Positions 3,987-64,000 of a DNA stretch of 64,000 nucleotides are shown here, piece after piece (position 1 is the first letter of the stretch; each line of letters starts with the position of its first letter). The translations under genes and the position numbers were made by a program. The notes beneath the pieces are model-generated. The model did no database searches and had not been told where the DNA came from. It saw nothing but the letters and a program-made list of their open reading frames with translations. This DNA comes from Microbotryum violaceum (Eukaryota): positions 2,681,591-2,745,590 of the forward strand of contig LN717261.1 in the NCBI GenBank assembly GCA_001244265.2. The letters are read 5' to 3'.

Positions 3987-4362
<376 letters not shown>

Positions 4363-5369: not shown

Positions 5370-7116
5370 ATGTCTGCCTCTACGACCGACCACCCCCTCG
5401 CCAACGAGACCACAAGGGTAGACGACCACAGCAACCAGCACTTTGACCTTGAGAAGGGTAACGGTGGCGTAGGAGGTGCAGCACTCGGTCGTCAATTCTC
5501 GGTAAGTCGCGATTGCTCCATTCTTTCCAACTTCAGGACCCCCTGCCATGTGGGGCAACTCGGCCCCGAGCGCCTCCTCACCACATTGTCCCGGAGGGGC
5601 GTCACCGTTGCCTGCACGCGCCCGCCTTGAGACACGGCTTGCAAAAATGACAAAGCCGGTGTTTTCAGAGTAGTGACAGCTAGCTTACATTCCGCATGAC
5701 CCCGCCCCTCCCTCGATGTCACCTGGCTGCGCACGTCGCCTCGTCCATCGACACACATACTCCTGCCCGTTCATCATAGATTCAACTCACCGCCGAGCAA
5801 TTCGAGAGGCTTTACCTTCAACCCGGAGGTGTCGCCGCCAAGGGAGACCTTGCCAAGTACGTCACGAACGATGTGGGAAAGAGCCACTTTTGCTTCAAAA
5901 AGTCTGGCAGCTGACCTAAGCTCTCTCACCCCTTAGACGATTTGCGAACCCCACTCCTCTTGGTGTCGCATCGTTCCTCTTGTGCCTGACTCCTTTTTCC
6001 ACTGAGTTGATGGGATGGAGTGGCCCGACCACCGACAGTGCAGTCGTTGCTGGTACGTACGATCGCGCCGCGCTCCTCCTGGCGAAAAAGCCCTGAGCCT
6101 GACCAGTTTCTTTGCACCATCTGCCTTAACAGTCGGCGCCTTCTACTATGTCGGTACGTGAATGCGGTCGTTTCTTTCTACTGCTTAGTACTTGTTGCTT
6201 ATCCAGCGTTTGGACTCCATAGGTGGTGTGGTCCTCTACCTTTCCGGCCTTCTCGAATGGATCATCGGAAAGTAAGTCAGCGCCAGCGCACGCGCGCTTT
6301 ATCGACGATGGTCCACTGACCTTTTGCTGCTCCCGCAAACAGCACCTTCCCCGCCACGGTTTTCATGACCTTTGGTGGATACTGGCTCGCTTTCGCTTTC
6401 CTCTTCCAGGTAAGTCGCCGCGCCTCCTACCATCGAGGCCGCATCTAGTTTGAACTGATCTGGGCATCTGGCTGGCGTCTCCTGTTGCTTAGCCCTCGCA
6501 AGGCATCGCTGCTGCTCTCGGAGGCTCACCACGGCCGTCTACAACAAAGGCACAGCGTTGTATCTGGTTTGGTGGGGAGTGTTGGTTCTGAGTGAGCTCA
6601 AATGTCATTCGTACGCTCCGCATATACCCAATTCTGACGAGGACTGCTTCTGTACGCAGTCTACTTGATCGCCAGTCTGCGCACCAACGTCGTCTTTGCT
6701 CTCCTGTTTACGTTCCTCGACATTACGTTCTGGATCTTGGTGGCTGTCTGTGAGTTTTTGGTTTTCAAGGATGTGAAAATACTCGCAGAGACCTTGTGTG
6801 GGCATCAGTACTCACCAACTTGCTTCACGCGGGATATGCAGATGTCCAACTCGGCTACGGCCATGTGACCCACGTGCCGATGGAGCTCAAGACGGCGGGA
6901 GCCTTTGCATTCCTAACAAGTGCATGCGGGTCAGTAACTGAACCAGACATTCTTCAGTATTCCTCTCGCTATAAGCTGACCTTTCAAACCCTTTGTCTGT
7001 GTGCGAACAGATGGTACCTCCTCGTGGTCCTGATCTTCGGCTCCACTGGTATCCCCATCGCCTTACCCGTCGGAGATCTCTCGAACTTCATGTCCGGTCG
7101 CCGCAAGGCGAAGTAG
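5370..7116 (+). CDS. GPR1/FUN34/YaaH-family acetate/ammonia transporter, multi-exon, with an apparent 1-nt frameshift near 6525
   Basis: Exons spliced by eye give FANPTPLG, GNTFPATVFMTFGGYW, ASLRTNVVFALLF and LPVGDLS, which are family signature segments. Many GT-AG introns, the first at 5502-5779. Confidence 0.85.
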
Positions 7117-7152: not shown

Positions 7153-7412
7153 TGTTCGGTGTGAGGTGTTAGTTGGTGTGTTGGGAATGAGGGTTAGGAA
7201 TGGCGCGTTCATTGGTAATCTGTTTAGAAGCGCTCGTCTGTTTAGTGAAGCCTGGCGAAGCGTACCAACCGTTGTCTTCTTTCTCTCCACGGTTGGAATT
7301 CACGCTCGTCAGGTACGCATGTTTAGCTTCACAGCCACTTTCGTTGCAATTAACTGACGGTTGGATTACACGCTCGTCAGTCTCTTATTTTGTAGCGTCT
7401 GTATTGCCGCAA
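7153..7412 (+). mobile_element. Probable 5' LTR of the truncated Copia-like element (boundaries approximate)
   Basis: Lies directly upstream of a gag ORF. Has a CT-rich tract followed by 24-bp direct repeats (7289-7312, 7357-7380), as in other LTRs of this window. Confidence 0.55.
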
Positions 7413-7454
7413 GGCACAGATCCGCACGCAGAAAAGACGCAGCGCATATCCAAG

Positions 7455-8770
7455 ATGGCTACGACCACGGTGGATTCCGGGTCTGCCACTCATCGCGGCC
7501 TTATGGGCGACCTGTATGGCAATGTCGACGCCACAAACTGGGGAACGGCCAAGGATCGACTCCAACGGGTGTTGGAGGGCGATGGCCGGTTCAAGCATGT
7601 CACGACCGAACTCAGCGTTGGCCCCGAGCCCGAACAGTGCGAGTTCACCCGTTCGCTGGGTGGCTCCACTGTGGCCGACGTAGTCACGTTCCGTACACAA
7701 CATCGGAATTACCGTCATGACGTCGACGACCTCGATCAAGGCTTGGCGCAGGCCCGCAACATCTTGTTCGTGTGCCTGGGGAGGCCACGTTCGCACGCAT
7801 CGCAGACCAGCCAACGCACGAGCTGTGGGCGGCCCTCGATAAGGATCTCGGCGCCGCATCCCACGACTTCGCGCGGTCGGTGAAACTCGATGCTCTTTTC
7901 CAATACCAACCCTACGTCGATGGAGGCCCTCTCGACCCTTGGTTGTCGCGCTTCAACCGGCTGTTCATCGATCTCAACGCCGCGCATGTTTCCCGTGATA
8001 AGGCCTACCAGCGCGCCAAGATTGACGGGGTCAAGTACACGCAAGCTGAGTTTGATAAGTGGGTTCCGCCGCCTGCGTTGTCGGAAGGCATCCGCATGGA
8101 CCTCTTGAAGGCGAGGATGCCACGGCCTATTGTCACGGTTATCGACGCCCTCGGCCCTATCCCGTCGCTCAGTGATGTGGAGGGCGCGATTCGTCGCGCG
8201 GCGATGTCTCGCTCTTCCGGCACCGACGTCGCCGAAGCCCTCGCGGCGAAGACTCAGGGTCGTCGCAGGCGCCCCGCTCGTTCGTCAGGCAAACCGAAGT
8301 CCAGTTTTCTCTCGGCTTCGAAGGTACGGGGTCTCGTGGACAAGTGGCCGCACGGGGTTGCGCAGAACGGTCGTCTGAGGCTGGGCCCGTCGCAGTGTCG
8401 GAAATGCTACGAGCAGGGTCGTCTTGGCGACGAATGTACCGTCCCCTCGACCTAACTGTCCCATCGTCGGGTTGCCGTCTTGGCCAAGCACAACATCTCC
8501 ATCGGCGCGGCCGACGCGATGGCGCTCGTGGCTGAGTGCGGTCCCGACCCATCGGTTGACGACGACTCTTACGAGAACTATTTTGCCGAGGTCGCCCTTG
8601 ACACCGAAATCTCTGCACTGTACTTGCACGACGGTCCCCGCTGCCTCCTCGACTCGGGGCGACGCGCCACATGACCACTCGTCGGGATCTCTTGGTCGAC
8701 TTCCAGCCTTTCACGACGGAGCGGGTGCGCGTAGCCTGCGCGTTCAAGTCCAGCGCCATGGCGGCCACGA
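7455..8770 (+). pseudogene. Ty1/Copia gag-protease fragment, frameshifted and truncated by a TIR transposon
   Basis: gag-like segment ELWAALDKDL, degenerate zinc knuckle CRKCYEQGRLGDEC, and aspartic protease LLDSG(ATRHMT) across a frameshift. Confidence 0.75.
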
Positions 8771-10844: not shown

Positions 10845-11116
10845 TGTCAAAAGGGTATTACTGTTTCCTCCCACTTAGAATAGATTAGTATCTAGTTGTT
10901 GATATTAGCCGCGCGCCTCTAGCCTCCCTAGTGCGCGCGCACTTGGCTCTTCTCTCTCTTCTCCAACTATCTTTACTACCATCTTCGGCTCTCGTGCTTA
11001 CGTACCTCGTGCCTCGGGCCTCAGGTTAGTCTTGCAATATACCGGAACTATCTTTACTACCATCTTCGGCTCTCGTGCTTACGTACCTCGTGCCTCGGGC
11101 CTCAGATGTGCTAAAA
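10845..11116 (+). mobile_element. Solo LTR of Copia family A, long 272-bp form
   Basis: Matches the LTRs at 28366 and 33040 plus 81 extra bp. Perfect TSD TACAA at 10840-10844 and 11117-11121. Confidence 0.95.
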
Positions 11117-11183
11117 TACAAGACCTCAAGGCCGGGTAGATGCCCCTGTCTCAAGTGGCGCACCTTCTGCTTCCAAGCACGAC

Positions 11184-13167
11184 TTGCTTGTCAGGGAAAA
11201 GCGTGAAGCATCTCCAAGCGACAGGATCTCCGGCAATCTACGTCCGAACACCGAACCAGATTCAACGGATGACAAGCTCGTCAACAGTGAAGATCATGCG
11301 AATTTACCAACATATAGTGAAGGAAGGACAACGATGACAGACCTGATGCTCGAAGCATACCCACAAGAGATTGTTCTTGATCCTTGGCGGCCCAACGGGA
11401 CTTGGGGCGACGTCCTCATTGTTCGTGTGGATCCAGGCTCGAGCGGTGGCTTGTCACACATGTGGGCTTTCTCGGTGTCATCATCTCGAACCGATTTAAA
11501 AGGGCGATGGAAAGGCCCGCGTTTGGATGCAAACGTCGAGTACAGCAAGTACAGCAAAAGACGTTGCATGGGCGTGTTCGTCTGTTGTGATCAATCATGC
11601 CCTGGCAAGCGTCAACCTCACACATCGCTGTCGACAGCGAGTAGGTCGAAGTTGTTTCAGGAGGAGACTCCACAGCTCGTCACAGGACGCCCCAAGAAGG
11701 CTGTAACCCGCAAGCACCTCGCTCCAAACGTTGAGAGGCCTTCAGACGAGTTACCGCCGTGTCCAATCACAAGCTGTAACGCACCGATGAGGCACATCCT
11801 GTGCTCCGCTACGATTGCCCGAGGGCAGCGTGAGGAATGCCCGGGGGAAATATATATCTGGAATTCAGGGTACCATTTGCATCCTCCGCCTCCGGTGTCG
11901 CGTCCGTCCCCGCAACATCTGGAAGAGCTGCGACAATTACGTAAAGCCGGTCCACAAGCATCGGCCGCCGAGCTGCGCATGGGACAAATGACCGCATTTC
12001 CGCAGGACCCTCGTCATCGGCCGTCCGCCTCTGAGATTTGCCCCGTATTCGACAGCACTCGATCAATCTCGAGATACGCACCAAGAGTGGGCCACAGGAA
12101 GCGTAATGGAGCCCTACCCGACACGTTGATGTCAGCTATTGAAGCTGTTGCCAATGCCGGTTGCCTCGCGTACATCGAAATACCGGGACAGCGCCAAGGG
12201 CAGCCACTTGCCGAGCAAATACACGATCCCGACCCTCGGAAGCAACCCAGGAACGATGGGTCGCGGTCGAAGTCGAAGATCACCTCCAATTCGCTAACCG
12301 ACTCTGAGACGTCATTTGGCATCCAGACTCCTCAGATGAAAGCGAGGCTCTCGGAAACGATTGACGACCGGCTAGTCGAAGGCAATTTGGGATGGCCTAC
12401 CAACGCTCACAACACCTACTTTCGCGACAATCGGGTGTTGCTCGCCACGGTCTGCTATTCGCCAAGCGCTCGTCGCTGGTTTCCGATCCTGTACTCCGTC
12501 GGCAACCATGAGCGATCGGGCTTCTACCGCCGACATTTTGCGCACCTATTCCAGATTCTTGACGATGCCAACTATAGCGTGGAGGACATCGTCAACGGAG
12601 TTACATTTGTTGTCGATTATTCAAACGCGCAGATTTCGGGTCTTCGCCAAGCCATTTCGGATTGGTACGTGGCACGCAAGACCGCAGATGTGGGACGCTT
12701 GAACGTCACACCCAATCAGGTGTCACAGTGGACTGCAGAGGCTATTCAGATTGGCGAGAAGGCGGCAAGCGGGTGCGCCTCTCACTTCATTGAGCAGGTC
12801 AGGAGGTTCGGGGTCCGACATCTCAGTACGCAAACGGAGCGCGAACGATTTGCAATGCTGGTCAACACCATGCGCAACGCGAAGTCCCATGCATCGATTG
12901 AGTCCATGGCAAAGCGCACAATCGATGAGTTTCCTGTGTCAGAGAATTGGATCAAATGGTGGACATGACCAGCGATTCGAAATGTGGTATTCAAGGAACT
13001 CAATGGATCCGCAGAAAGATGCGTGGCTACCACAACAAATGCGGTGGTATCTTCCCACTGGCTCCCAATCCATTCATGTGGTGGTGAACGCTTTGGACCG
13101 GTGGAAGGGGTGATGCGACTTATCGACTTCGCGAAAATGATAGACCGAATTGAAAGTCATGCGACCG
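11184..13167 (+). pseudogene. MULE-type DDE transposase with N-terminal GCM/WRKY-like zinc finger, degenerate
   Basis: Zinc finger: CMGVFVCC..C..PCPITSC..C..GYHLHPPP. Transposase motifs: TNAH (expected D, 12402), VVDYS (12615), CASH (CxxH) and TTNAVVSSH (expected E, 13047). In-frame TGA at 12966. Confidence 0.65.
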
Positions 13168-14303: not shown

Positions 14304-15891
14304 GTGCAGCTCCACGCAGACTTCTGGCTGCGATCAGGTGAAGACGGGCCAGTCGTCATTATCCAAGGCCCGTGGAGCGATAATTCTTGCTGGATTGACT
14401 CAACGCTTATCGCATTGCTCTCGGTCGCCAACGGATTGGAACCATGGCTGCAGTGTCTGGATATCCTTAACACCCATACGGCCTACGTGATTCCTCCACT
14501 TGGCGATGAGATGGTGTTGAGGTTCCGCCCTCGATATTTGGCACTCGAGCTATGGGATGCGATTCGCGAATACACAGCATTGGCTCGAAAGTTTGATATG
14601 AAACCGGCGGCGAACGCCATTGAAGCATACACACAATTACGAGAACGGATGATTTCCACTGTGGTTGGGATGTCGAAAGAGCGCGAAAGCCATTTTACAA
14701 CTCCATTTAAGCGGGGGAGTTATAGTAGCCCAGTAGTCAGTCAATCACTTAGCAAACCCCGCCCTCCCAAGACGATTAAAACTGGACGCTAATTATCACT
14801 TTTTTCGGCAGACCTGGCTCGAGACACTTCACTCGTTCACCGTCAATCATCCGGTTCTGCCAAGCGCTGTCACGTTGAATGATCCCGACCGAACTCTCGT
14901 CGAATTACATCTTCAACGAGCCGGGTATTGCACTGCATGCAACTGCATTCAGATTGAGGTGTTCCCAAGACGACAGTTTGTGGTTGACTGGCCCCTTCTC
15001 ATCTCAAGTCTCCACCTGCCTTCGCATTCGCTGGAAACGTTGTCGGACGTCCTCGCCTCAATCGTTGGGCAACCGTTGAAATTGTACACAGAGGCAAAGA
15101 ACTCAGGCCGTCGGCATCACAAGCGCAATTGCCCCGGAGGCTCTTACGTGCAATTCGTTTCGATCACCTCGCTCCCCCGTGTGATTGTGATCAACATCAA
15201 CGATATTTACACGGAACATTCACTGGCCCCAGCTGAGCTACGCTTCGGTGTTTCGGACCAAATGCCAGAGATGGTTTGGCGCCTTCGGTCAGGAGTGTAC
15301 AACATCAACAATTCACATTTCGTTACGAACGCGACGGTTGGATACGGGCAAGAGGCCGCATGCTATCATTTCGACGCAATCAAAGGCTCTCTCGTTTTAG
15401 AACATCTGAGGCCCGAGGCACGAGGTACGGAAGTATGAGAGCCGAAGATGGTAGTAAAGATAGTTGGAGAAGAGAGAGAAGAGCTAAGGGCGCGCGCACT
15501 TGGAAGGCTAGAGGCGCGCGGCTAATATCAACAACTAGATACTAAACTATTCTAAGTGGGATGAAAAGTAATACCATTTTGACATCTCGCTAGGCCGATA
15601 GGGGACAGGAACGCTGGCGGATTAGTTTCCGTTCTTTTCTACGAGCTAGAAGAGGAATCATTGAACTTCTTGCAAGCCTTCAACCTAATGCTAACGCGGC
15701 AGTGGCACGAAATGTGGAGTCTATACCATGAGCCCTCCGATCCTACCGATATCGGCATTAAAGTGTCAAGTCTACCACCCAAAGGGACTCTTGAAGAAGG
15801 ACAAGGTGTCTGGAAGATGGAAGATGCGTCGGCTTTTTTTCATGAAAGCAAGATAGTGAGTGTCGGGAACGCCAAAAAAGCAGATCAATAG
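14304..15891 (+). pseudogene. USP/C19-like cysteine peptidase domain carried by the transposon, interrupted by a solo LTR
   Basis: Cys box DNSCWIDSTLIALL, intron near 14736-14810, CTAC, LPRVIVININ, His box GVYNINNSHFVT..CYHFDA. Removing the LTR and one TSD restores the frame through VSVLFYEL to the stop at 15891. Confidence 0.7.
15395..15584 (-). mobile_element. Solo LTR of Copia family A, short form, more diverged
   Basis: Reverse complement of LTR A. Perfect TSD TCTCG at 15390-15394 and 15585-15589. Confidence 0.95.
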
Positions 15892-16844: not shown

Positions 16845-18168
<1,324 letters not shown>

Positions 18169-21246: not shown

Positions 21247-21341
21247 TATAATGAAAAATGTTGTCGAGACAAAGAACATTCTAGAACAAGACAAACCACG
21301 TGGCTTGACGTCATGGCGCATGAAGCGCGCCACCGTACTAG

Positions 21342-28050: not shown

Positions 28051-28365
28051 GTTATTTTTGCCATTTGGGGGGGACGTAGTCGCCTGAAAGATAATTTGAT
28101 GGTTGACGCAACATCAGCAGTGGGGCGGCGACTAGGTATTGATTAAGGAGCTTTGGCTTTGCAAGAACAAGCTCAGAGTGATGTCAGTTGGCTGCAACTG
28201 GTGAGAATGGGGATAGCTACCTTCGTCTCAGCATACCTTTGCAAGAACAACCGGGACTCTGTGATGCCGCGGAGGCTAGCAGAGGCTGCGTTTCGAGCAG
28301 GAGGGTTCGGCAGAAGGACTGCTGAGAGATGCAGGGGTTGCAAGTCAGTGAAGTGGTCCAACAAG

Positions 28366-33230
<4,865 letters not shown>

Positions 33231-37823: not shown

Positions 37824-38739
37824 CGAAGCCCCTCCACATAATCATGATCGTCGACGATCTCGCTCGTACTCGCGCGTCGGGTAGTCTGAGCGTCGAGTTA
37901 AGCTGACGTGAAATAGCACCCCTTTTCCCCAGTCCTCCTCACCAGAGCCTCAGGTACGTCACAACCTCCCTACTCGGCCCAACGCTCCCAGACTGATCGA
38001 TTTCCCACCCATCCCTGCAGGTTTCCTCGCCGCCCACGTCGGCCAACAATTGCTCCAACGCGGATTCCGAGTCCGAGGAACGGTCCGTTCCCAAGCCAAG
38101 GGTGAGTATCTCAAGAAGTTGTATGAGAAGGATGGCAAGGCGGATCAGTTCGACTTTGTGATTGTTGAAGATGTTGAGCAGGTACGTTTCGCCTACAAAG
38201 CATGGGGTTGCTAAGAAAGAAACAAAACGGGGAGTGAAGCACTGATGATGCGTATTCCGACTTGGGTGTTGGTGTAAACAGGAAGGTGCTTTCGATAAAG
38301 CTGTCAAGGGCGTCGATGCAGTCGTACACACGGCCAGTCCGTTCCACTTCAACGTCACCGATCCCCAAAAGGACTTGATCAACCCCGCCGTCCAGTCAGT
38401 ATATGAGCTCAGGCCGAAACAATGCCGTTCAACAGAAAGAAGGAGTCTGACTCTTTTGCTCGTGGACTCAATCAGGGGCACATTGAACGTCGTGCGTTCG
38501 GCTCTGCTCGAACTCAAGATCAAGCGCGTCGTCATCATGTCATCCTTCGCGGCCGTGACCAACCCCCTTACGATCCTGTTTACACGTTCACGGAAGAAGA
38601 CTGGAACGAGTTCTCACCCAAGGAGTTGGAGAAGAAGGGCAACGACTGTGACCCGTTCCGTGAGTTCAGATGCGGCAGGGTTTTTCGAAAGGAGGGAAGG
38701 AGCTGAGAGCGCTGATGCTGCGGTGTACAATGTGCATTC

Positions 38740-41700
38740 TGTAGAAATCGAACAGCGATGTGCTGAACGAGTTGGCGGCAGTGGCAAGCCAATGAGTTCG
38801 TAATCAAGTGAGGTTGCAATAAAGGAGTTCTTCACACACCTGAACAAGTTGGCGGCAGTGGCAAGCCAATGAGTTTGTAATCAAGTGGAGAAGAAGAAGG
38901 AAAGACGCGATTGGACCGCGCGGCTAATACAAATAGAGACGCGCGCTAGGCAGATTTAAGGCAAGAGTAATCTACCTCAACACCCCCACTTGCTCTTGGC
39001 CTGAAATGCGGCGCAGACCGATGGCGTCACAATGACGCTGGAAGACTACTCGCGGCAGCGGCTTGGTGAAAATGTTGGCAACCATATCGTGGGTTGGGAT
39101 GTAGGTGACCGAGATCTCTCCATTCCGAACATGCTCCCGAACGAAATGCTCCAACATGCGCAAATGTTTGGTGCGAGCGTGGAAGACCGGATTCTGGGTG
39201 AGCGCTATAGCTCCCTGGTTATCCCCGAGAAGACGTAAAGGGGACGACGTATCGAGACCGAGTTCGGTGAGGAGCGAGCGAAGGAAGACAGCCTCCTTGG
39301 CTGCATGCGAGAGGCCCAGGTACTCCGCTTCCGTGGATGAACAAGCTACGCGAGGTTGGAGACGAGATGACCATGAGATGGCCCCACCCGCCAGTTTGAA
39401 CAAGTAACCCATAGTGGACCTCGACGTCTGTATGTCCGATCCCCAGTCCGAGTCAGAGTACCCCTCGTACCCCAGCAGAGGCGAACTGGTGCGCGTGTAG
39501 TGTATGCCAAGATCGAGCGATCCTTTGATGTAACGAAGGACGCGCTTGGCCGCCTCGAGGTGAGTGTCGCCAGCCTTGCCGACGAAACGTGACAGATATC
39601 CGACGGAGTGGGCTAGATCAGGGCGAGTGGCAACAACAGCGTACATGAGTGAGCCGATCATGGAACGGTAGATGGCATTGTCGGCGGAGTCTGTATCGGG
39701 TTCCGGCGAAAGCTGTAGGTTGGCTTCCATGGGTGACTTGCAGGGGTTGCAGTCGGACATGTTGAAGCGATCCAAGACGTCAAGGAGGTATTGACGCTGG
39801 AGAAGGGAGATCCCGCCATCGTCGTGTCGTATGACCTGAACCCCGAGTACCCATTTGGCCGGGCCAAGGCATTTGACTCCGTAGAGGGTGTCGAGTTGGT
39901 CAAGGACTCGATCGATTTCCCCGAGATCCGGCCCAAAGAAGAGTAGATCGTCGACGTAGAGTGCAATGTAGTGATCACCCCAGCGTCCTCATGACGATAG
40001 ATGCATTCATCGCAGGCGAGGCGACGATAGCCAAGACTCGCGAGCATGGCGTTGATCGTGTCGTTCCACACTCGACTTGCCTGCTTGAGACCGTAGATCG
40101 ATCGATGAAGGCGGAGGCATTTGCCTTCGTAGCCTTCGATGCCAGTTGGAACCCGCATGTAGATCTCCTCCTCCAGCACACCGTGAAGATAGGCCTTGTC
40201 AACGTCGGCTTGAATGATGTGGTGGCCCTTCGAGGCCGAGTGCGCGATGAGCGTGCGGATGGAGGTGTACTTAGCCGTGGGTGAGAAGGTGTTGTTGAAG
40301 CTGTTTGGGCCTTGTGCGCAGCCCTGTGCAACAATGCGGTTCTTCAGTGAAACCATCTTCCCGGCTTTGTCGCGTTTGGTTCGAAAGACGTGACGACTTG
40401 GTAAGATCGTAGCTCCTTTGGGCACGGAGGACAGTCCGACGACGCTGAACACCTTGAGATCGTCTTTCATCGAGCGGAATTCCTCAATGGCTCCCGCTTT
40501 CCATGCCGCGGCGTGAGGATGGCGCATGGCCTCATTCCACGTGGTGGGATCACTGCTCGGGAGCGAGAACGGGTCCTCTGGTTCCGAGAGCGGTCGATTC
40601 GCCGTCGAGGTGTCAATGCCCGCCGCGTCGAGATCAGCAACAAGTTCGGTTACCTCCTTGCCTAGAGAGAATGCGAAGGCAGAAGGGGTCGAGCGCAAAG
40701 ATGCTAGGGCGCCGTAACGAGCTGGGGGTTGCGCGGGCGCGAACCCACGGGTGGCTGCCACGCGGGCCCCGGTGCGTCGAAACGTAAAGCAGCCGGAAGC
40801 TCCGCTTGGTCGGGGGTGCCTGATTGGCATGCTGGTCAGGGAGTACAACGACTTTGTCATCGTCATCGTCGTCGTCGTCGTCGTCGCCTGCGACGGGCGC
40901 GTGAGCTGCTGTGATGCCCTCCCGCCTGGCTGGGAACTCGTCCTCGAAGAATGTGACGCTGCGCGATTTGAAAACTTGTCTGGTAGCGGGGTCAAACAGT
41001 CGGTATCCCTTGGATTCGAGATTGTAGCCGACGAATACGAGTGGAATGCCCCGCGGATCGAGTTTGCTGCGCGCTTCGGTGGTAGCTGCCTTCCACGCTC
41101 TGCAGCCGAATACGCGGAGATGGCCGGCTGACGGCTTCGATCCGTGCCAACGCGTGTGTGGTGTGACGCCTGAATTTGCCGAGTGTGGTGAGCGATTTTT
41201 GACGTAGACATATGTTGCCAATGCCTCGGCCCACAAAGCGTGAGATAGACCCGACTGGTGGAGCATTGATCGGACACCCTCGGTGATCGAGCAATTTGCG
41301 CGTTCGGCAACCCCGTTTTGCTGAGGGGCATCGGGAATCGAAAGCTGACGAGTGATGCCTTGTTCTTCCAGGAAGCTCGAGAACTCGTTTGACAAGAATT
41401 CACCACCGTTGTCGGAGCGGACTGCCAGGAGTTTTCTCGACGAGGAGCGCTCGACCTTTGCAAGCCACGACTTGAAGGCCGCAAAGGTATCGGACTTGTG
41501 CGACATCGGAATTGCCCAGAGATATCGGGTGTAATCACCGACAATGACGAGGGCGTATTTTGCGCCGCCTAACGACACGGCGCCGTCGAACGCAAGAAGG
41601 TCCATGTGGACTCGATCAAGAGGCTGGGCTGAACGATTCGACGCGACGGTGGGGAAAGGGTGATGTGTGATCTTCCCAGCCTGGCATGTATCACATTTCA

Positions 41701-43391
41701 AGTCTGCGTTCAATGCTATCTCCATGTTGACTCCCAGCACAGCCTCAGTTGAGATCAGCTGTCGTAGAGCGCGTGGGTGAAGGTGAGCGAAACGTCCGTG
41801 CATGATGGAGACGGGGACGGCCGCGAACGCACGTGGGGACGCACCCGGTTGCTCGATGAGAGTAGTGACGTCGACTAGGGAAGCATGCATGTGGTACAAG
41901 CCGTTCGTGATCTCCCCGGTGTGGCAAATCGACCCGTCGACTGAGACCATTGCTTTGCCTCGGGAAAGGTTGATGTCGTAGCCCGCGGCGTTGGCGCGAC
42001 TGGCGGAGAAGAGGCTGACCGGCGCGCTGGGGACGAACAACGCGTGGTGGAGTTGACCGATGCTGCCGTTGAAGGAGCGAACGACAGCGGAACCGACGCC
42101 TTCGATCGAATTGACCGCCTCGCCCGTGATGCCCTCGAGCGGAGCAGGCTTGCACTTGCGGAAGTTGGTGAAACAAGCGCGATCGTTGACGATGTGATGC
42201 GTCGCGCCGCTGTCGAGGATGAGGGAAGGTTTGGCCAATGTGGACATCGCTGCGGTGAGGTATCCGCGGACCGGGCCGTCTACCAACGTCGAGATGTCGG
42301 GAGCAGCGGCGAGTGATGCGGACGGCGCGGAGGAGGCCTTGGACTTCTTGTCCTTGACGGGGCATTTTCGATTCCAGTGAGGACCTCCACAGTGTCGGCA
42401 CGGAGCTGACGGAGTCGATGAAGATCTGTCCGTCGCGGTCAAGCTAGCTACCATCGCCACGGGCTTGTGTGCCGGCGTGGATTCAGCTTGAGTCTGAAGC
42501 GTTTGAAGCGCTTCAATCGGATCAGGGAGCTTGTCGAGGTCTTGACGGAGCGCTTGAGTATAGTACTCCTTGTAGAGGTCCTTGCCAAAGTGGATCAAGC
42601 GTATCGAGATGACCTGGTCAAAGGTAAGGTTGTATCCCGAAAGAGTGTTAAACAGCTCAATGGTGTTGGCTTGGTACTTCTCGAACGCGTCGACACCGGA
42701 GGGAGGCGGACCCGCATCGAGCAGGGCTTGGAGCTTGATGAAGATGTCGGTGACTGTGCCTGCTGCGACCGCTTTCTTGATCATCTTCAAGACGTCGGTG
42801 GGAGTGTGATCGAATCCATCTTTGATCTGCTTCTTGATGTTGAGGGAGACCGAGCGCCTCAAGAGCGCGATCGCTTGGAAGTTGGCGTGCTCCAGGTCGG
42901 TGCGCGCGTTGGGTTTCTGAATGGGCGTCGCAAGCGTGCAGTTCCAATAGTCGCCCCGAGAGCTCCACGGACGTCGTTGATCCATTGCGACCAGCCTCCC
43001 GCGTTGCGCAGGTGGCATGACGGGTCGATATCGCGGGGTTTGACATAGACGATAGAGGTTGTTCCCCCTGATACCACAGTGTCCGTATCACCGGGCATGA
43101 TGACTTGATGACTCGAGTTGGCTGGGCCGCTACGTTGGGCTCGTAACCTGTAGAAATCGAACAGCGATGTGCTGAACGAGTTGGCGGCAGTGGCAAGCCA
43201 ATGAGTTCGTAATCAAGTGAGGTTGCAATAAAGGAGTTCTTCACACACCTGAACGAGTTGGCGGCAGTGGCAAGCCAATGAGTTCGTAATCAAGTGGAGA
43301 AGAAGAAGGAAAGACGCGATTGGACCGCGCGGCTAATACAAATAGAGACGCGCGCTAGGCAGATTTAAGGCAAGAGTAATCTACCTCAACA
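38740..43391 (-). mobile_element. Full-length Ty1/Copia retrotransposon, family B, frameshifted gag-pol
   Basis: 243-bp TG..CA LTRs at 43149-43391 and 38740-38982. TSD CATTC, PBS-like GGTTACGAGCCC, PPT GAGCAAGTGGGGG. Motifs CRHCGGPHWNRKC, LDSGATHH, SDNGGE, YVDD and YSDSDW. Confidence 0.97.
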
Positions 43392-45366
43392 CATTCATAT
43401 ACTCGTGCCGTGCTTCCAAGACTTTGGCCAAGAGAGCGGCTTGGGACTTCTTCAAGGAGAACACCAAGGACGGCAAAGCGCCTTTCGACATTGCGACGAT
43501 CAACTTCCGTGAGTTGAACGTAGCGACACAGAAAGGCAGCCCAGTTGCAACAGCCGGACTGATCCTTTTGTGGTTTTCCTTCATTCTTTTTACTCTCAAG
43601 CTTTGATCTTTGGTCCCGTGATCCATGAGATCCACTCAGCAAAATCGCTCAACACCTCCGTCGGAGTCACCTCCTCGGCGACAAGACGAGCGAGGACGCG
43701 ACCAAACCCGCTGGACTTTTGGTCGATGTCCGTGATGTAGCTTTGGCGCATATCCTCGCTTTGGAGAAGGAAGAAACCGGAGGCAAGAGGTTCCTCATCT
43801 CCAAGAAGGAATTCGTGTACCAAGATATCTTGGACCTGCTCGAAGGTTCGGAACAGGGGAAGAAATGGTTGAGCGAGTTCCCCAAAGCGACTAAGAGTGG
43901 GAAGGGGGACGTCAAGGGCGTGAAGCAGAATTTGATCGATACGACGAGGATGGAGACAGTGTTGGGATTGAAGGCGAGGAGTGTGGAAGAGACGGTCTTG
44001 GATATGACAAGGAGCTTGGCGGAGAGGCAGAAAGAGTGGTGAGCGGTTGAGTGTGAATAAGCTTAGAAGATGAAAGGTTCATCAAGCATCGTGGAATTTA
44101 AAGAATTCGTCGCATTCAAGCTTTCGCTCGAAACAGGGCTCGGCAAAAAGATTGTGGACCGAATGCGGACAAGGTCTTTGGCTGATCGATGGCTTGTCCT
44201 CCGCCGAGCAGTGTAACACCCAATAGTTTCCACATCTGGCAACAAGAGCAGCGAAAAGCTACTACGCATAAATATCTGCGTCGTCAGAGTATCTGGAAGT
44301 CTCTACGAATAGCGTGTGCTTCATCTAATGCGCCTCTCCAGGTCCGCGGAGCATCCTCGGCCGCGCTTGCCTAGTCAGTAGCCAGTCATTTCATTGTACT
44401 GACGAAAAGATGGTCCTGTGTATGTGAGTACATATATTTAAGGGCTGGTATCGGGATGTCGAAGCGGTGTATGCCACGGCCATCATTGAAACGAGCCGCA
44501 GCCGTGGAATAGATTCGAGACATTTTTTTGGGGTCCCAAACCGAAGTCCTCGCGCGAAGTCCGGCGTTCCGGGCCCACGGTATAGCCGTCCTATTCTGCT
44601 GGTGGTCGGCATGCGACTTTCTTTAACATCCTCTTGTCCTATTCATTAAAAAAAGCGTGGACTGCTTCCCTTGATGAAGTAGAGTGCTGTAGCTTTGAGG
44701 TGTCAAAGACGGTCTTGCTCTTCCGCAACTTGCAGCTCTCCCTGAAGGTGCTTGATTGATGATTTGAGCTGCTGATATAAGGGGCCGCCCAAGACAAGAA
44801 CATCGCCCCAGAATGATTACAATACAGTCAACACAGGGGCTCCGCCAAAGCCGTCGTCCACCCCGCCAGGCACATCCAAGAACGCTTGCCGCTTTCGCGC
44901 GAATGAAAAAAAGTCAAGTACGAGGGTGCTGGGTGTATGCGCGAAGGCCCTGCTTGCGCACGACACACCCACCCCGCGCGCCGGCCCCGCTCCAGAGGGG
45001 GAAAGCTCGGAGATTCATCAGAGACACTCACTCCCACGCTGAGGAATTGCGAACGCCGTCGGAACCCTCGAACACAAAGTTTTTATCATAAAGGTTTGCA
45101 CCTAGGGCCGCAAAAGGCCTTTAGCACGCAAGAGGTGCCATGAAATAGTAGAGGGTCCTTAATGCTGGGCCGGGTCGCGGCAGCGCCGGCAGCGCCAGTC
45201 GCACAGCCGGGTCCACGCTTTCGAGCCATTCATTGCCAAGGTCTCGCGAAGTGCTTTGGCCACCTTCCCCCCCTCTCCCCTCTCCCCTTTTCCCTTCCTC
45301 CGTACGATCCACAACTCCCTCGCCTCTTTCTTTCGACGCTCGTTCCAACTTCACAAATCTGCAATC

Positions 45367-51041: not shown

Positions 51042-52488
51042 AGGTAAAGGCAGAAGGTAGTGTAGTGCTCACCTGCTCAAGCGGTGGTAAGGCTCTGATC
51101 GACAGACGAAGGAGACCAGACCAAGAAGTTGCTTGAGCAGGAGAGAGAGAGGCGCGGAGCCAGTTGGCTCGGGTGAGCGCGCGGCTGGTCCAAAAGGAGG
51201 TAAGGTGAGACCAAGAAAAGGAGACATGATGCGAGAAGGAAACACAGGAGGTTGTCGATCTCACACTTTTCATGAGAACAGAAATGCCCTTCTCCAAAGG
51301 ACCAAAATGCCCTCGGATTCTCGACTTCTGTAATACTTGATATATCAGCTCATAACCAAGAGGGTAGCTTCTTGTAGTCGTTGTGATCAGCGCCGTATAC
51401 TCAGAATCCCCAGAGATGCCGTGAGAATTCATATATCACGGTCGCAAAGTCAGGGGTCCTCATCGATCGTCGACGCGTCGAGGCGCGCGAGTTCGCGAAT
51501 CGAGGTTGGCCACCTTCCGCGTTCTCGCCTCGACATCGAAGTCACCACCAACTTTCGACAATGGAACATTTTTTAAGAAAGGGGGGCAGTCTCTACAAAA
51601 AGAAGGAGCTCACAGATGCGGGCCATCAATATGCGCTTGATCACCAGTTTCAGCTCGACATTCGCAAGTCTGACACGCGTCGTGAGCAAGAGTGTCCAAG
51701 ATCCTCCGTGCGCCTTCCCTGCCACTGCTATCTCCAAAGAAGAACGCAGTGTTTGGACCATCATTGTCTTTAATGAAGCCCACAGTCACCGATCGCTGCT
51801 GCACACCGGCGACAGCAAGAGCAGACTTACGCGACACCGCTCCAACCTGTTCCATCTCGGGCCGAATGGAAGCTGCATTGTCTTCCTCGTGAGCGTCATG
51901 AGGTCATGGTGAAGTGGACGATAGTGACTCAACTGTCGAAGAAGAGGGTGTCATTATCATTTCGTCACATCTCTCCAAGCGTATACGACGTCCGATCAAA
52001 CGCAGGTTCCGGGGTGCGGACGAGAAGTCCAAGCGCGACACGATCTGTGGTCTCTGCAAAGGCCCCGGACACAACCGAGTTACATGCGATAGATAGATAG
52101 ACCGTTTGAATCTGAGCATAAGGCGTCAAGACTGTCAATGCTACTACTGCTGGCCTTTTTCATATGGAATTCACTCGGTCTATACTCATCGCTCGCTTTC
52201 GACTTGGACTCGCTTCAGTCGCGATAGGGCCCTGACTTTGCAACCGTGATATATGAATTCTCACGGCATCTCTGGGGATTCTGAGTATACGGCGCTGATC
52301 ACAACGACTACAAGAAGCTACCCTCTTGATTATGAGCTGATATATCAAGTATTACAGAAGCCGAGAATCCGAGGGCATTTTGGTCCTTTAGGGAAGGGCA
52401 TTTCTGTCCTCATGAAAAGAAGCGAGGTCATTTTCGTCCTTTCGCTATCTTTCGAGGGCATTTTTGTCCTTTACCCTAACTATTACCC
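51042..52488 (+). mobile_element. Non-autonomous, internally deleted Mutator-like element
   Basis: ~190-bp inverted repeats (51266-51456 vs ~52229-52419), Mutator-type end GGGTAAAGGACAAAAATGCCC and 10-bp TSD TAGCTAGTAA. Residual FAR1-like CAF..W..FNEAHSH and zinc knuckle CGLCKGPGHNRVTC. Confidence 0.85.
51051..51265 (-). mobile_element. Truncated LTR (family E) inserted in the left TIR of the MULE
   Basis: Starts TGTGAGATCG on the minus strand, has CGCGCG and CT-rich tracts like the other LTRs, and replaces part of the TIR. Confidence 0.55.
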
Positions 52489-53027: not shown

Positions 53028-55040
53028 ATGTCCCGGTCCCAAGGTCGCCAGGGACTCAGGGAGGGCCATCGCAACCTCGCCAAGTCTTGGGCGCGAGGGT
53101 AGCGCCGTACCATGGGCTACCATGGGCCTGCCTGAGCGCCCCGCGGCTCGACCCTCCTCTTCGTCCCGCTCCGATCAACAGAATCAGCCCCCCGGCGCGT
53201 CATGACAACAATTCAACCGATCTTGGCATTGCGACACGTATACGACCCCGCCGTGCAGCTGTGCAGAACGGACAGCGTGGTCAGCGCGATGGCCAACTCG
53301 ACGCTGGGCTCGCCCCACCAACCACCTCCGCAAAGGCGAGTGCGCCGGGCTCGAATCGCGCTCAGACCCCTCAAGCCCACGTTTCGATCCGCGACGACCT
53401 CGGCCCCCAGACGGCCGTGTGCACCCACTGCAAGGCTCGGCACTGGGAGTGCGAAAGGTCGAAGTCGACCAGACACTTCAGCGCGTGCTGCTCGCAGGGC
53501 AAGGTGCGGCTACCTCCCCCTCCCCAGCCCAATCTCGAGTATCGGCAGCTTCTTCAAGGCTCGGATAGCGGTCAGTTGCTCCGTCCAACAACGTTCGTCT
53601 GCAGTAGACCCACATGCTGAACTGTTCTACCCACCCACACAGAAGCTAAAGCATTCCGCGAGAATGCCCGGTCGTACAACAACGCATTGTCGTTCACTTC
53701 GCTCGCTGCCCTCTGGGACCAAACTCAAGTGGGCACGCTAGGACCCCCCGTGTTTCGCGTGTTTGGTCGCCTCTACCATCGACTCGGCGCCCTGATCCAC
53801 GCCGTGACTCAACGCCCAACCTTTGCTCAAACATGGCTGATCGACCCGGCCGAGGCCACCGACACTCGACTTGGACCCGACGGCGCAGACAGTCACATGC
53901 AACGATCTACTTTGACCAAGCTCGAGTCCATTCTGCGCACCGGCAATCACTTTGTGAGGGAGTTCGCATCGGCCAAAGCTCGCGCAGGTTGGGATACGGC
54001 CAAAGAGTGGATCCTGCGCCTCTGCCTCCCGCCAAGCCGGGACCGACCTACCCACAACCTTCCTACGTCAAGCACGGAAGTGGCGATGCTTATCTGCGAT
54101 TCCGACACCAACATGGGAGATCGTGGACCTTAAGACCGTATTCTCCAGGTGCACAGTGATCGATGTCCCGATGGTCGGCCCAAGTACCAAATCGTTAGCT
54201 CGCTCCATCCGTCCGCGATGCCTCTCCGTTACCCACTACTTTTTCCTGCAGGGGAAGATGGCTTCCACCCCAACATTCCTCTTTGCAGTTTCAACCAAGC
54301 TGGGCCGCCCATCGCCAGAAACCGAGAGCAGATCGACAATGGTGTCCAATTGCGCGAGCTACTTGACGGCCTTGGTCCAGATGAAGTACTTGCGGGTCTC
54401 AGTCTTGATGACGGAGGCGAAGAGGAGGACGAAGACCGCGACGATGAGGATGAAGACGGCGAGGAAGGGGACGAAGAGGATGGTGATGGCGAACGTACGC
54501 GTCTTCGGCTCTTTCTTTGATGTTCCATTCTGCCGAAGGCGCAAGCACAGACTGACATTGAGCTTTTGAACACCTAGGACGAAGGTCAAGTAAAGGGGTC
54601 GAGGTGGCGAGTCTCGCGTTCACCATTCTTTGCGCACTACTTGCCAAACGCGACGAGTACTTCTCAATCACGCATTGCACCCAACGTCCCATCCTGGAGT
54701 TTGTGATTTACGGATATCCTCCCAAGTCGAGACCGATCGACTCAACACATCCGATTGCATCAAGAGAACCTACGCCTCACCACGACCCAAGGCATCAACG
54801 GCTTGACCCCGAACCAAATCGCGACATCACGCAGCGATACCAGGATGCGATGGCGTGTGTTGTCAAAGAGGAAAAGCCTCCGCTGCTGATCACGATGACG
54901 TACGACCCCGACTCACCGGAAACCAAGGCTGCACTGGGGCCGTTAAAGCATGCAACCGTCCGGATCTCATTGCACGAGTGTTTGAAGCCAAGTCCGGCAA
55001 CAAGCGACATGCAGGCTGTTTCGGCGATGAATGTAAGATG
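53028..55040 (+). mobile_element. Helitron RepHel N-terminal region, degenerate and deleted
   Basis: CTHCKARHW..CCSQGKVRLP, intron, RSYNNALSFTS, GRLYHRLGAL, PLRYPLLFPAGEDG, RYQDAMA..LITMT..RPDLIARVF. Confidence 0.85.
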
Positions 55041-61132: not shown

Positions 61133-61369
61133 TGTAAGGCGCGCGCCTTACTACGGGCCACAGGCACTAGAAATAGAGATCCGCGCACCTAGCTTCTTCA
61201 GTTCCCTCCTCATCAGGCTGACACCAGAAGCTAGGTGAGTACTGGTGTTCCATATCTCAGCACTCTTGTAGATGATTGGGCTGACACCAGAAGCTAGTTG
61301 CAATCCATACAACTTGCACCTGTCAGCTTAGGTCGCCAGTGAGGCTCGAGAGCGATCTTGTGCCTTTCA
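61133..61369 (+). mobile_element. Solo LTR (family F, architecture like family D) with non-matching flanks
   Basis: Ends TGTAAGGC...GCCTTTCA. 19-bp direct repeats at 61216-61234 and 61279-61297. Confidence 0.65.
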
Positions 61370-63106: not shown

Positions 63107-63477
63107 TCATCGCGCCAATCTGAGCTCCAACCTCTCCTTCAGTCCCGCCATCTCCTTGTCCATGCTCGACATCGCTCTGGCGTGGCGATGGAGATCCCAG
63201 CGTCGGTTGCTGAGAGTGTCGAGCGCCAGCGCAATGAAGGCGCGGATTGGACGCTTTTTCGACGTCGGAAGGCGAGCGCGCAGTCGAGGGAGGCCGTGCT
63301 CGATCTGAAGTGCCGTGTAGTCGAGGTCGAGGATCGACACGACCCCCAGCGCGTCGCAGATAATGGACCTAGCTGCTTGCCAAAATTGAGAAGAGTCAGG
63401 GCAATCATGCCAAAAGTGAGTAAAGTCATCCTCCACCCCTGCCAGGCTGCATGCATGGGCCAGCTCGAGCGCCCGCT
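63107..63477 (-). pseudogene. LINE ORF2 C-terminal fragment (zf-RVT-like)
   Basis: AC..GVEDDFTHFWHDCPDSSQFW matches the C..C..ED..H.F..C..W motif. Stop at 63107. Confidence 0.6.
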
Positions 63478-64000
63478 GCTGGGCGCCCCGCGGCTCGACC
63501 CTCCTCTTCGTCCCGCACCGATCAACAGAATCAGCCCCCCGCGCGTCATGACAACAATGCAACCGATCTTGGCATTGCGACACGTATACGAGCCCGCCGT
63601 GCAGCTGTGCAGAACGGACAGCGTCGTCAGCGCGATGGCCAACTCGACGCTGGGCTCGTCCCACCACCACCTCCGCATAGGCGAGTGCGCCGGGCTCGAA
63701 TCGCGCTCAAACCCCTCAAGCCACCGTTTCGATCCGCGACGACCTCGGCCCCCAGACGGCCGTGTGCACCCACTGCAAGGCTCGGCACTGGGAGTGCGAA
63801 AGGTCGAAGTCGACCAGACACTTCAGCGCGTGCTGCTCGCAGGGCAAGGTGCGGCTACCTCCCCCTCCCCAGCCCAATCTCGAGTATCGGCAGCTTCTTG
63901 AAGGCTCGGATAGCGGTCAGTTGCCTCCGTCCAACAACATTCGTCTGCAGTAGACCCACATGCTGAATTGTGCGATGCACCTACACAGACGCTAATGCAT
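63478..64000 (+). mobile_element. Helitron RepHel N-terminal fragment (runs off the window end)
   Basis: Near-identical to ~53130-53650, with CTHCKARHW..CCSQGKVRLP. Confidence 0.85.

What the first reader, a model, noticed from the sequence alone, without database searches (positions are those of the whole stretch)
10845..11116. Candidate self-regenerating intron inside LTRs: repeat-GT...AG-repeat architecture shared by several LTR families
Seen in sequence: this 272-bp LTR has a CT-rich tract, a 60-bp unit ending CTCAG (10965-11024), a donor GTTAGT at 11025, a 21-nt spacer and a second copy of the unit ending CTCAG (11046-11105). The stretch 11025-11105 is therefore an 81-nt GT-AG intron candidate. 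The other three copies of this LTR (15395, 28366, 33040; 190-191 bp) lack exactly these 81 nt. The same design recurs in LTRs with different sequences at 3987, 7153, 16845, 38740/43149 and 61133, with a truncated case at 51265. Intron lengths are 58-97 nt, like host introns here. In family A the gag ATG (28560) lies 4 nt after the LTR, so the 5' UTR is essentially all LTR. Established: retroelements normally lose introns through their spliced RNA intermediate, and first-strand transfer uses the terminal R redundancy. Inference: transcripts start near repeat 1 and splice the 5' LTR intron. The 3' LTR copy is polyadenylated within repeat 2 and stays unspliced. Strong-stop cDNA annealing to repeat 2 rebuilds the intron, while annealing to repeat 1 gives the short LTR. 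This would let LTR elements keep an expression-promoting 5' UTR intron in an intron-dependent host. I do not know whether this has been described.
Basis: partly seen in the sequence, partly recalled or inferred. Interest (0 to 1): 0.92.

Follow-up and report, generated by a model that had tools for sequence, protein, structure and literature searches.

The report
Intron-like repeats inside fungal retrotransposon LTRs
Several unrelated retrotransposon end-repeats in this anther-smut fungus carry a short intron-like stretch whose last part copies the piece just before it, a layout that could let a mobile element keep an intron through reverse transcription.

Summary
The window is Microbotryum DNA. 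Six sequence-unrelated LTRs show the same order: CT-rich tract, unit ending in AG, GTNNGY spacer, the same unit again, then a short U5. Three are shown to be Ty1/copia LTRs; the other three are LTR-like by layout only. Of 8 two-copy spaced repeats in the window, 7 have AG|GT at the unit edge.

New evidence:
- Family C is the 5' LTR of a third copia lineage. Gene models of two sister species hold its long form, and one holds the exact short form.
- A metagenome contig with Agaricomycete-like relatives has the design in two nested LTR families.
- In one of these, repeat 2 equals repeat 1 minus a 50-nt GT..AG stretch. That is what a copy made from spliced RNA would look like.
- The left edge of the unit is C|A in 4 of 9 sites, as at a transcription start.

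No RNA evidence was obtained: the runs found were contigs and none is on record as RNA.

Verdict: these are very probably real LTR-internal introns. Rebuilding by first-strand transfer is the best explanation so far but is unproven. I found no description in eight literature searches.

The parts
10845..11116 (+). Family A solo LTR, long form (272 nt), flanked by 5-bp duplication TACAA
10947..10964 (+). CT-rich tract just before unit 1; the junction to unit 1 reads C|A
10965..11024 (+). Unit 1 (60 nt, ends CAG), read as exon 1 and R
11025..11105 (+). Intron candidate, 81 nt: spacer 11025-11045 (GTTAGT...) plus unit 2 at 11046-11105 (ends CAG)
11106..11116 (+). U5, 11 nt
28366..33230 (+). Family A Ty1/copia element with short LTRs (28366-28555, 33040-33230). 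Target duplication ACAAG, PBS GGTTATGAGCC, ATG at 28560, one TGA where relatives have R
15395..15584 (-). Family A solo LTR, short form, target duplication TCTCG
3987..4362 (+). Family B LTR-like unit. Unit 1 at 4141-4220; intron candidate 4221-4317 (97 nt, GTTAGT..TAG); 2 mismatches between units
7153..7405 (+). Family C 5' LTR. Unit 1 at 7290-7312; intron candidate 7313-7380 (68 nt, GTACGC..AACTGAC..CAG). Followed by a copia gag ORF from 7456
16845..17004 (+). Family D LTR-like unit. Unit 1 at 16912-16933 (holds GACTAAC); intron candidate 16934-16991 (58 nt, GTGAGC..CAG). 3' end uncertain
38740..43391 (-). Family E Ty1/copia element, long form in both LTRs (43391-43149 and 38982-38740). The LTRs differ at 2 of the 244 aligned positions 38739-38982. 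Target duplication CATTC on the + strand
43172..43248 (-). Family E 5' LTR intron candidate (77 nt, GTGTGT..CAG). Unit 1 at 43296-43249, unit 2 at 43219-43172
38763..38839 (-). Family E 3' LTR intron candidate. Its unit 1 (38887-38840) carries two transitions at CpG sites
61133..61312 (+). Family F LTR-like unit. Unit 1 at 61216-61234 (holds GCTGAC); intron candidate 61235-61297 (63 nt, GTGAGT..TAG). 3' end uncertain
28157..28250 (-). Site X: 14-nt unit, GTATGC spacer, same unit (period 80). No CT tract and no LTR context. Kind unknown

Best explanation
These are spliceosomal introns inside the R/U5 part of LTRs of basidiomycete Ty1/copia retrotransposons.

In these elements the start codon sits in the primer-binding site. 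The 5' UTR is therefore all LTR, and an intron in the UTR can only lie in the LTR.

Proposed cycle:
1. Transcription starts at the C|A junction after the CT tract, so unit 1 is exon 1 and acts as R.
2. The intron is the GT-spacer plus unit 2. It is removed from the 5' copy.
3. The 3' LTR copy on the RNA stays unspliced and ends in or after unit 2.
4. Minus-strand strong-stop cDNA, made on the spliced 5' end, carries unit plus U5.
5. If it lands on unit 2 of the 3' copy and is extended, it rebuilds U3-unit-spacer-unit-U5. If it lands on unit 1, it gives the short LTR.

Shown: the anatomy, its recurrence, the splice-like signals, the short forms, and a processed second repeat in L004.

Inferred: the transcription start, the splicing, the poly(A) site, and which repeat the cDNA lands on.
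For: 1. The same order of parts occurs in 6 window LTR families with unalignable sequences, with units of 18-80 nt. It also occurs in 2 nested families on metagenome contig L004. The polyprotein of L004's inner element has Agaricomycetes as its named relatives, at 37-40% identity.

2. AG|GT lies at the unit edge in 7 of 8 spaced two-copy repeats. Donors fit GTNNGY in 7 of 7 window sites, and 6 of the 7 units end in YAG (X ends in AAG). CTNAY lies 10-50 nt before the 3' end in all of them. Sizes are 58-97 nt. Two introns inferred from gaps in the match to a sister-species protein are 58 and 83 nt, with GTTAGC and GTACGC donors.

3. Unit 1 equals unit 2 in every family: 0 mismatches in A, D, E 5' and F, and 2 in B and C. 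The two differences in the E 3' LTR are transitions at CpG sites. In the M. saponariae gene model P0097, unit 1 of family C translates as unit 2 does.

4. In the inner L004 LTR, copy 2 equals copy 1 minus exactly 50 nt that start GTGAGT and end TAG, in both LTRs. Only 21 of 200000 random 13-mers match as well.

5. The left edge of the unit is C|A in 4 of 9 sites (p 0.0015 at 1/16 per site).

6. E, the inner L004 element and, at gene-model level, P0097's element carry the long form in both LTRs. So the long form passes through reverse transcription.

7. A toy run of the model returns the parent LTR for A and E, plus the 191-nt short form seen in the window.

8. The polyproteins start with MS, from ATG AGC of the primer-binding site.
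Against: No RNA evidence of any kind: no start site, junction or poly(A) site.

In family A, 3 of 4 LTR loci are short, and so is a sister-species copy. The short form therefore replicates well without the intron.

Of 19 LTR pairs in 53 metagenome copia loci of 4.5 kb or more, only L004 has the design. L080 has the same type of primer-binding site but lacks the design.

In L004 the 50-nt intron must stay unspliced in the 3' copy although it is complete there. That needs a further assumption.

Intron b of L004 has a weak donor, GTACAT.

B, D and F are not proven to be LTRs.

An unspliced genomic RNA would also carry the long form faithfully.
Confidence: 0.55

Rival explanations
1. The introns in the LTR are real, but replication is conventional. 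Spliced RNA serves only as mRNA, and unspliced RNA is the template. The long form is then copied faithfully. The repeat is a relic of occasional aberrant strand transfers or of copying from spliced cDNA. Short forms arise when spliced RNA is used now and then, or by recombination between the units.
For: Long forms in both LTRs of E and of the inner L004 element fit this as well. The L004 processed copy needs only one event. Retroviruses use unspliced RNA as their genome (established knowledge).
Against: This gives no reason why 8 unrelated families should each hold a near-perfect copy of exon 1 at the end of the intron. It also does not explain why unit 1 in D and F carries a branch-point-like motif and an AG that it would not need. 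Without homogenisation the two units should drift apart. Yet they match while the families are unalignable.
Confidence: 0.28
2. DNA-level tandem duplication or replication slippage produced the repeats. The GT and AG are accidents, or the duplication of an AGGT-bearing stretch created intron-like DNA that is not used.
For: Tandem duplication of AGGT-bearing exon DNA is a proposed route of intron birth (recalled, not from a call). An AGGT somewhere in a 20-80 nt unit is not rare: my estimate is about 0.06-0.28 per unit.
Against: The spacer is not duplicated and is absent from the short forms, so a duplication of short-form DNA cannot make the long form. The repeat edge falls exactly on AG|GT in 6 of 7 sites, not at a random offset. 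+5 G and +6 Y are present in 7 of 7 donors. The L004 copy lacks an internal GT..AG stretch.
Confidence: 0.05
3. The repeated unit is a duplicated promoter, start-site or termination module of the LTR. Examples would be two initiators or two poly(A) modules. The splice-like signals would then have another role, such as U1 binding that silences the 5' poly(A) site.
For: The unit follows a CT tract and starts at C|A. Spacers of A, E and C share TTGCAA close to unit 2. Splice donors in or near R that control polyadenylation are known in retroviruses (recalled).
Against: This does not explain AG at the unit end, branch-point-like motifs in the units, the exact short forms, or the processed copy in L004.
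Confidence: 0.07

Closest known systems
Penelope-like elements with an intron in the pseudo-LTR
   Same: They are retroelements that keep a 5'-UTR intron after retrotransposition. In Penelope the pLTR holds the start site and a 75-bp intron. The authors call this retention highly unusual and of unknown significance (passages of PMC8557442).
   Different: PLEs have a telomerase-like RT with GIY-YIG endonuclease and use target-primed copying. Here the elements are Ty1/copia with integrase and true LTRs. No repeat of exon 1 at the intron end is described in the passages I read.
Split-intron retroviral vectors (engineered; Ismail et al. 2000, seen only as cited in PMC3182074)
   Same: The intron exists in the integrated copy only because reverse transcription copies LTR sequence from one end to the other (passage of PMC3182074).
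   Different: The vector is man-made. Its donor sits between U3 and R and its acceptor lies beyond the packaging signal. There is no repeat, and the vector is not meant to go through further cycles.
Minus-strand strong-stop transfer through R in retroviruses and LTR retrotransposons
   Same: The proposed step is the ordinary first jump, guided by terminal redundancy (established knowledge).
   Different: Here R would be present twice in the 3' LTR copy. The choice of landing site then decides whether the intron is kept.
Intron birth by tandem duplication of an AGGT-bearing exon segment
   Same: The sequence before the donor is repeated at the end of the intron, and splicing restores the single-copy form (recalled).
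   Different: In that model the start of the intron is also repeated after the acceptor. Here the spacer is unique and the repeat edge lies exactly on AG|GT.
Fungal LTR elements primed by the anticodon region of initiator tRNA
   Same: The PBS GGTTATGAGCC follows the LTR in A, E and L004. A passage of PMC10886601 says that most fungal Helenus families have PBSs complementary to tRNA anticodon loops, tRNA-iMet among them.
   Different: That paper concerns non-autonomous elements with tRNA-like LTRs. The passages I read mention no LTR intron.

Membership tests
Ty1/copia LTR retrotransposon | Polyprotein with protease/integrase before the RVT_2 reverse transcriptase | tested here: met
   Pfam finds gag_pre-integrs, rve, SH3_retrovirus and RVT_2 in that order in A and E. 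The ORF after C is 95% identical to the N-terminal part of a copia polyprotein.
Ty1/copia LTR retrotransposon | Two LTRs in direct orientation flanked by a short target duplication | tested here: met
   A: ACAAG. E: CATTC. The two solo A LTRs: TACAA and TCTCG. B, C, D and F have no partner LTR and no clear duplication in the window.
Ty1/copia LTR retrotransposon | Primer-binding site next to the 5' LTR that pairs with a host tRNA | tested here: inconclusive
   GGTTATGAGCC (A, L004) and GGTTACGAGCC (E) follow the LTR. That this pairs with initiator tRNA is recalled. The window holds no tRNA gene to test against.
Spliceosomal GT-AG intron | 5' splice site GT with the local extended consensus | tested here: met
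   GTNNGY in 7 of 7 window sites. The donor types match those of two introns inferred nearby.
Spliceosomal GT-AG intron | Branch-point-like motif and 3' YAG | tested here: met
   CTNAY lies 10-50 nt before the 3' end in all sites. The end is CAG or TAG in A-F and AAG in X. The motif itself is recalled from general fungal knowledge.
Spliceosomal GT-AG intron | Removal from RNA | tested here: inconclusive
   No run on record as RNA was found. Only contigs could be laid, and none joins across the candidate. Indirect evidence: exact short forms and a processed repeat in L004.
Penelope-like element | Telomerase-like RT with GIY-YIG endonuclease, and no integrase | tested here: not met
   RVT_2 and rve were found instead.
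Intron born by tandem duplication | The intron start is also repeated after the acceptor, and the single-copy form holds all the sequence | tested here: not met
   The spacer is unique and missing from the short forms. The repeat ends at AG|GT.

The most novel reading that the evidence does not exclude
Basidiomycete copia elements use spliced RNA as their replication template and rebuild their LTR intron at every cycle, because R, which is exon 1, is written twice in the LTR. Reverse transcription would then be a routine maker of 'exon-1 copy at the intron end' structures. It would also be a way for a retroelement to be licensed by the splicing machinery of an intron-rich host without losing its intron.
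Probability: 0.4. Interest if true: 0.9.

Novelty: new variant of a known kind. Interest (0 to 1): 0.85.

Why it matters
Retroelements are expected to lose introns, because they copy themselves from processed RNA.

A natural LTR layout that keeps a 5'-UTR intron, and may rebuild it by the ordinary first-strand jump, would matter in several ways:
- It would be a new solution to that problem.
- It would show how mobile elements adapt to hosts whose gene expression leans on splicing.
- It would predict that R, the start site and the poly(A) site can be read from the repeat edges.
- It would give annotators a simple signature to look for in fungal LTRs.

It is testable at once with existing Microbotryum RNA-seq. 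A paper on M. lychnidis-dioicae reports strand-specific poly(A) RNA-seq (passages of PMC4469406).

Tried and rejected
RNA evidence. The look-up of sequencing runs could not be reached 14 times and was answered. It listed 24 runs, and no RNA holder was listed. I laid X17, X18 and X16 (guessed RNA) and X10 (DNA?) on 38700-43450.
- All are contigs, and none joins across the LTR candidate.
- The two joints listed (41007/42479 and 42295/42794) are internal and not GT-AG.
- One contig each in X10 and X16 puts the U5 edge directly before the unit next to U3, as a short form would. The unit is 48 nt and contigs break there, so this may be an assembly path. I draw nothing from it.

Tools not available.

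Wider sequence searches.
- The first metagenome scan, with a single protein, found nothing.
- The viral-contig scan found nothing.
- The design scan over the 80 metagenome loci gave 4 plus-strand and 0 minus-strand hits. By eye only the L004 hit is a real repeat.

Other dead ends.
- There are no tRNA genes and no Rfam matches in the window.
- The in-frame stops in A and in L004 looked like a shared readthrough site, but they lie at different places. The one in A is TGA where relatives have R.
- An origin by a jump onto the poly(A) tail was rejected, because no spacer ends in an A run.
- Site X could not be placed in a gene. The joined flanks of element A give no open frame.
- The gene models of P0104, P0105 and the N-terminus of P0110 cross the C LTR in ways I could not resolve from protein alone.

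Literature. Eight searches found no paper describing an intron within an LTR with a repeat of exon 1. Supplementary files were not opened.

Full report
**What the window is.** The polyprotein of the intact element at 28366-33230 is 91% and 86% identical to proteins of Microbotryum silenes-dioicae. Further hits are from M. saponariae and M. intermedium. The window has 50-60% G+C and is packed with mobile elements. It holds:
- two Ty1/copia elements;
- a gypsy-type gag remnant at 17064-17921;
- two Helitron-like copies;
- a possible MULE transposase (a lead only).

Passages of PMC4469406 give 55.4% G+C and 5.6 exons per gene for M. lychnidis-dioicae, so the host is intron-rich.

**The observation.** In the LTR 10845-11116 the 60-nt units 10965-11024 and 11046-11105 are identical and lie 81 nt apart. 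Unit 1 is followed by GTTAGT, and both units end in CAG. The three other copies align to positions 1-180 and 202-272 of this LTR, so they lack exactly 81 nt.

The long copy is a solo LTR with the duplication TACAA on both sides. 15395-15584 is a short solo LTR (TCTCG). 28366-33230 is an element with short LTRs on both ends (ACAAG).

**The same order of parts elsewhere.** The order is CT-rich tract, unit ending in AG, spacer starting GTNNGY, the unit again, then a short tail. It stands in five more places with unalignable sequences:

| Family | Unit | Candidate intron |
|---|---|---|
| B | 80 nt | 97 nt |
| C | 23 nt | 68 nt |
| D | 22 nt | 58 nt |
| E | 48 nt | 77 nt, in both LTRs |
| F | 18-19 nt | 63 nt |

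The claimed truncated case at 51265 could not be confirmed.

**Is it chance?** An exact-repeat scan (14 nt or more, period 20-160) gives 13 loci.
- Five are tandem arrays that TRF also lists.
- Of the other 8, 7 have AG at the unit end and GT right after it (B at offset -2). One, at 21288, does not.
- C is found once a mismatch is allowed.

That looser scan returns 9 sites. Eight are B, C, A, D, F, E 5', E 3' and X. The ninth is an antisense by-product inside the A repeat.

All 7 window donors fit GTNNGY. All have CTNAY 10-50 nt before the end.

Two introns inferred from gaps in the match to a sister-species Helitron protein are 58 and 83 nt long. They start GTTAGC and GTACGC.

**Are they LTRs?**
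- A and E are, by partner LTR, target duplication, primer-binding site and domains.
- C is followed by an ORF that is 95% identical to the gag part of the 1677-aa copia polyprotein P0097 of M. saponariae. C is thus the 5' LTR of a third copia lineage, cut off downstream.
- B, D and F are single copies in the window. They share the layout only: a TGT start, a GCGCGC motif and a CT tract.

**Why the LTR?** The ORF of A opens with the ATG inside the PBS GGTTATGAGCC, 4 nt after the LTR. Nine Microbotryum copia polyproteins were printed. Eight of them start with MS, as ATG AGC would give, and the ninth (P0001) carries MS after a 32-residue extension. The 5' UTR is thus R plus U5 only. In family C the ATG lies about 50 nt beyond the LTR.

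**Sister species.** Some gene models of sister species run into LTRs and so show them in translated form. These are gene models, so DNA and predicted splices cannot be told apart.
- P0097 reads straight through unit 1, spacer, unit 2 and U5 of family C (67 aa, 90% identity, no gap). Its C-terminus holds spacer and unit 2 again, so that element has long LTRs at both ends.
- There unit 1 translates as RLDYTLV, the reading of the window's unit 2. The two differences in the window's unit 1 are therefore private to this copy.
- P0098 and P0102-P0106 hold the end of the spacer, unit 2 and U5 (for P0098, P0102, P0104 and P0105).
- The C-terminus of P0110 reads CT tract, unit and U5 without the spacer. 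It matches a computed short form in one piece. This is either a short DNA form or a gene model that splices exactly this intron.
- P0009 shows a short A-like LTR in M. saponariae.

**Outside Microbotryum.** A profile scan of metagenome contigs gave 80 copia-like loci totalling 516 kb. Of these, 53 are 4.5 kb or longer, and 19 of those have LTR pairs. Only L004 shows a unit followed by GT. L004 shows it twice, in two nested and unrelated LTRs, both followed by GGTTATGAGCC. Named relatives of its polyprotein are Agaricomycetes at 37-40% identity.

The outer LTR has the plain design: a 24-nt unit with 1 mismatch, GTGTGT, and period 103.

The inner LTR is the most telling. Copy 1 is a 25-nt piece, then 50 nt starting GTGAGT and ending TAG, then a 13-nt piece. 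After 19 nt starting GTACAT comes copy 2. It is the same 25-nt piece joined directly to the 13-nt piece (12 of 13 identical), followed by U5. Both LTRs of the element show this. Only 21 of 200000 random 13-mers match the spacer as well.

Copy 2 is therefore copy 1 without a GT..AG stretch. That is what a copy made from spliced RNA looks like, and what a DNA duplication does not give.

**Mechanism.**
- If RNA starts at unit 1 and the 5' copy is spliced, strong-stop cDNA carries unit plus U5.
- The 3' LTR copy on the RNA, if unspliced and ending in unit 2, offers two landing sites.
- In a toy run, landing on unit 2 returns the parent LTR exactly for A (272 nt) and E (245 nt). For L004 it returns the same length, differing only at the one position where the two copies differ.
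- Landing on unit 1 gives 191, 168 and 286 nt. The 191-nt form is the one seen.

The model also makes unit 2 a fresh copy of unit 1 in each cycle. This would explain several things:
- The units match within families that share no sequence with each other.
- Unit 1 of D and F holds GACTAAC or GCTGAC plus AG, which an exon has no use for.
- The difference between the two L004 copies is shared by both LTRs. This fits a parent whose 5' and 3' LTRs had drifted apart.

The left edge of the unit is C|A in 4 of 9 sites by script, and in 5 of 9 if C's imperfect repeat is extended by eye. This fits a transcription start after the CT tract.

**What is not shown.** No start site, junction or poly(A) site was seen. 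The run search listed no RNA holder, and the four runs laid are contigs that break at the 48-nt unit.

An unspliced template would also carry the long form. That rival needs only rare events to make the repeats. It does not explain their recurrence, their upkeep, or the splice-acceptor features of unit 1.

Further points against a general or necessary role:
- Family A is mostly short.
- 18 of 19 other LTR pairs lack the design, and so does L080, which has the same PBS type.
- In L004 the complete 50-nt intron must escape splicing in the 3' copy.

**What is known.** Passages of PMC8557442 say that Penelope-like elements are highly unusual in keeping introns, and that the pLTR of Penelope holds the start site and a 75-bp 5'-UTR intron. 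Those elements have another enzyme set and copying mode.

A passage of PMC3182074 describes engineered split-intron retroviral vectors, in which an intron is assembled by LTR copying.

Eight full-text searches gave no paper on an intron inside an LTR with exon 1 repeated at its end. I read only listings and passages. Subscription journals are not covered, and supplements were not opened.

**Verdict.** The feature is real, non-random, and found in several lineages and at least two fungal groups. My estimates are:
- about 0.8 that these are true introns;
- about 0.55 that they are kept by strand transfer onto the second repeat.

I place it as a new variant of a known kind, LTR retrotransposons, with a new proposed way of keeping an intron.

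Noticed in passing
window 28556-28566; 43148-43138 (-); L004 4981 and 6445: The start codon of the copia polyprotein is the ATG inside the primer-binding site GGTTATGAGCC. Eight of the nine Microbotryum polyproteins printed start with MS; the ninth has MS after a 32-residue extension. In E the ATG reads ACG.
   Followed up: partly
window 38846 and 38876: These are the only two differences between the E LTRs. Read on the element's strand they are a CGA-to-CAA and a TCG-to-TTG change, both in unit 1 of the 3' LTR. They look like the RIP-like hypermutation reported for Microbotryum; its TCG target is recalled.
   Followed up: partly
window 39977, 40723, 40811, 42953: All four laid runs (two of them at 40811) carry one extra base here compared with the window. 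The frameshifts in element E may therefore be private to this copy, or may be errors of this assembly.
   Followed up: no
window 32265-32267: Element A has a single in-frame TGA where four relatives have R or Q. This is a plain nonsense change in an otherwise open 1488-codon frame.
   Followed up: yes
window 28157-28250 (-): Site X: a 14-nt unit ending in AAG, then GTATGC, 66 nt holding CAACTGAC, then the same unit. It has no CT tract and no LTR features, and it lies just beside the insertion site of element A. The design may not be limited to LTRs.
   Followed up: partly
window 11033-11039, 43229-43224 (-), 7343-7349: The spacers of A, E and C share TTGCAA(T) 3-9 nt before unit 2. In F the same word follows unit 2. 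Possible signal; role unknown.
   Followed up: no
window 10913-10946, 4044-4056, 16874-16883, 61139-61148, 43352-43320 (-): Every LTR or LTR-like unit has a GCGCGC-type palindrome in its U3 part, 60-100 nt before the CT tract. This may be a shared promoter element.
   Followed up: no
window 7100-7109 and 7406-7415: The 10-nt word GCCGCAAGGC stands on both sides of a 296-nt stretch that holds the family C LTR. It is too long for an LTR target duplication. Unexplained.
   Followed up: no
window 53090-55073 and 63476-64000: Two copies (95% identical) of a gene that matches a sister-species protein. It has a cysteine-rich N-terminus that I take for Helitron-like (recalled) and introns of 58 and 83 nt.
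   Followed up: partly
window 11115-12968: A 617-codon open frame next to the long solo LTR has no Pfam match. It resembles MULE transposase clusters in the protein atlas (score 0.94, a lead only).
   Followed up: partly
window 51266-51465 and 52222-52419: An inverted pair (95.5% identical) that holds a PBS-like TGGTTATGAGC and about 100 nt on either side. These look like fragments of a further copia element.
   Followed up: partly
sister-species proteins P0102, P0103, P0106 against window 7340-7460: A copia subfamily whose gag is only 64% identical to family C has a nearly identical translated unit 2, U5 and leader. The LTR end is better kept than gag, or LTRs were exchanged between subfamilies.
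   Followed up: no
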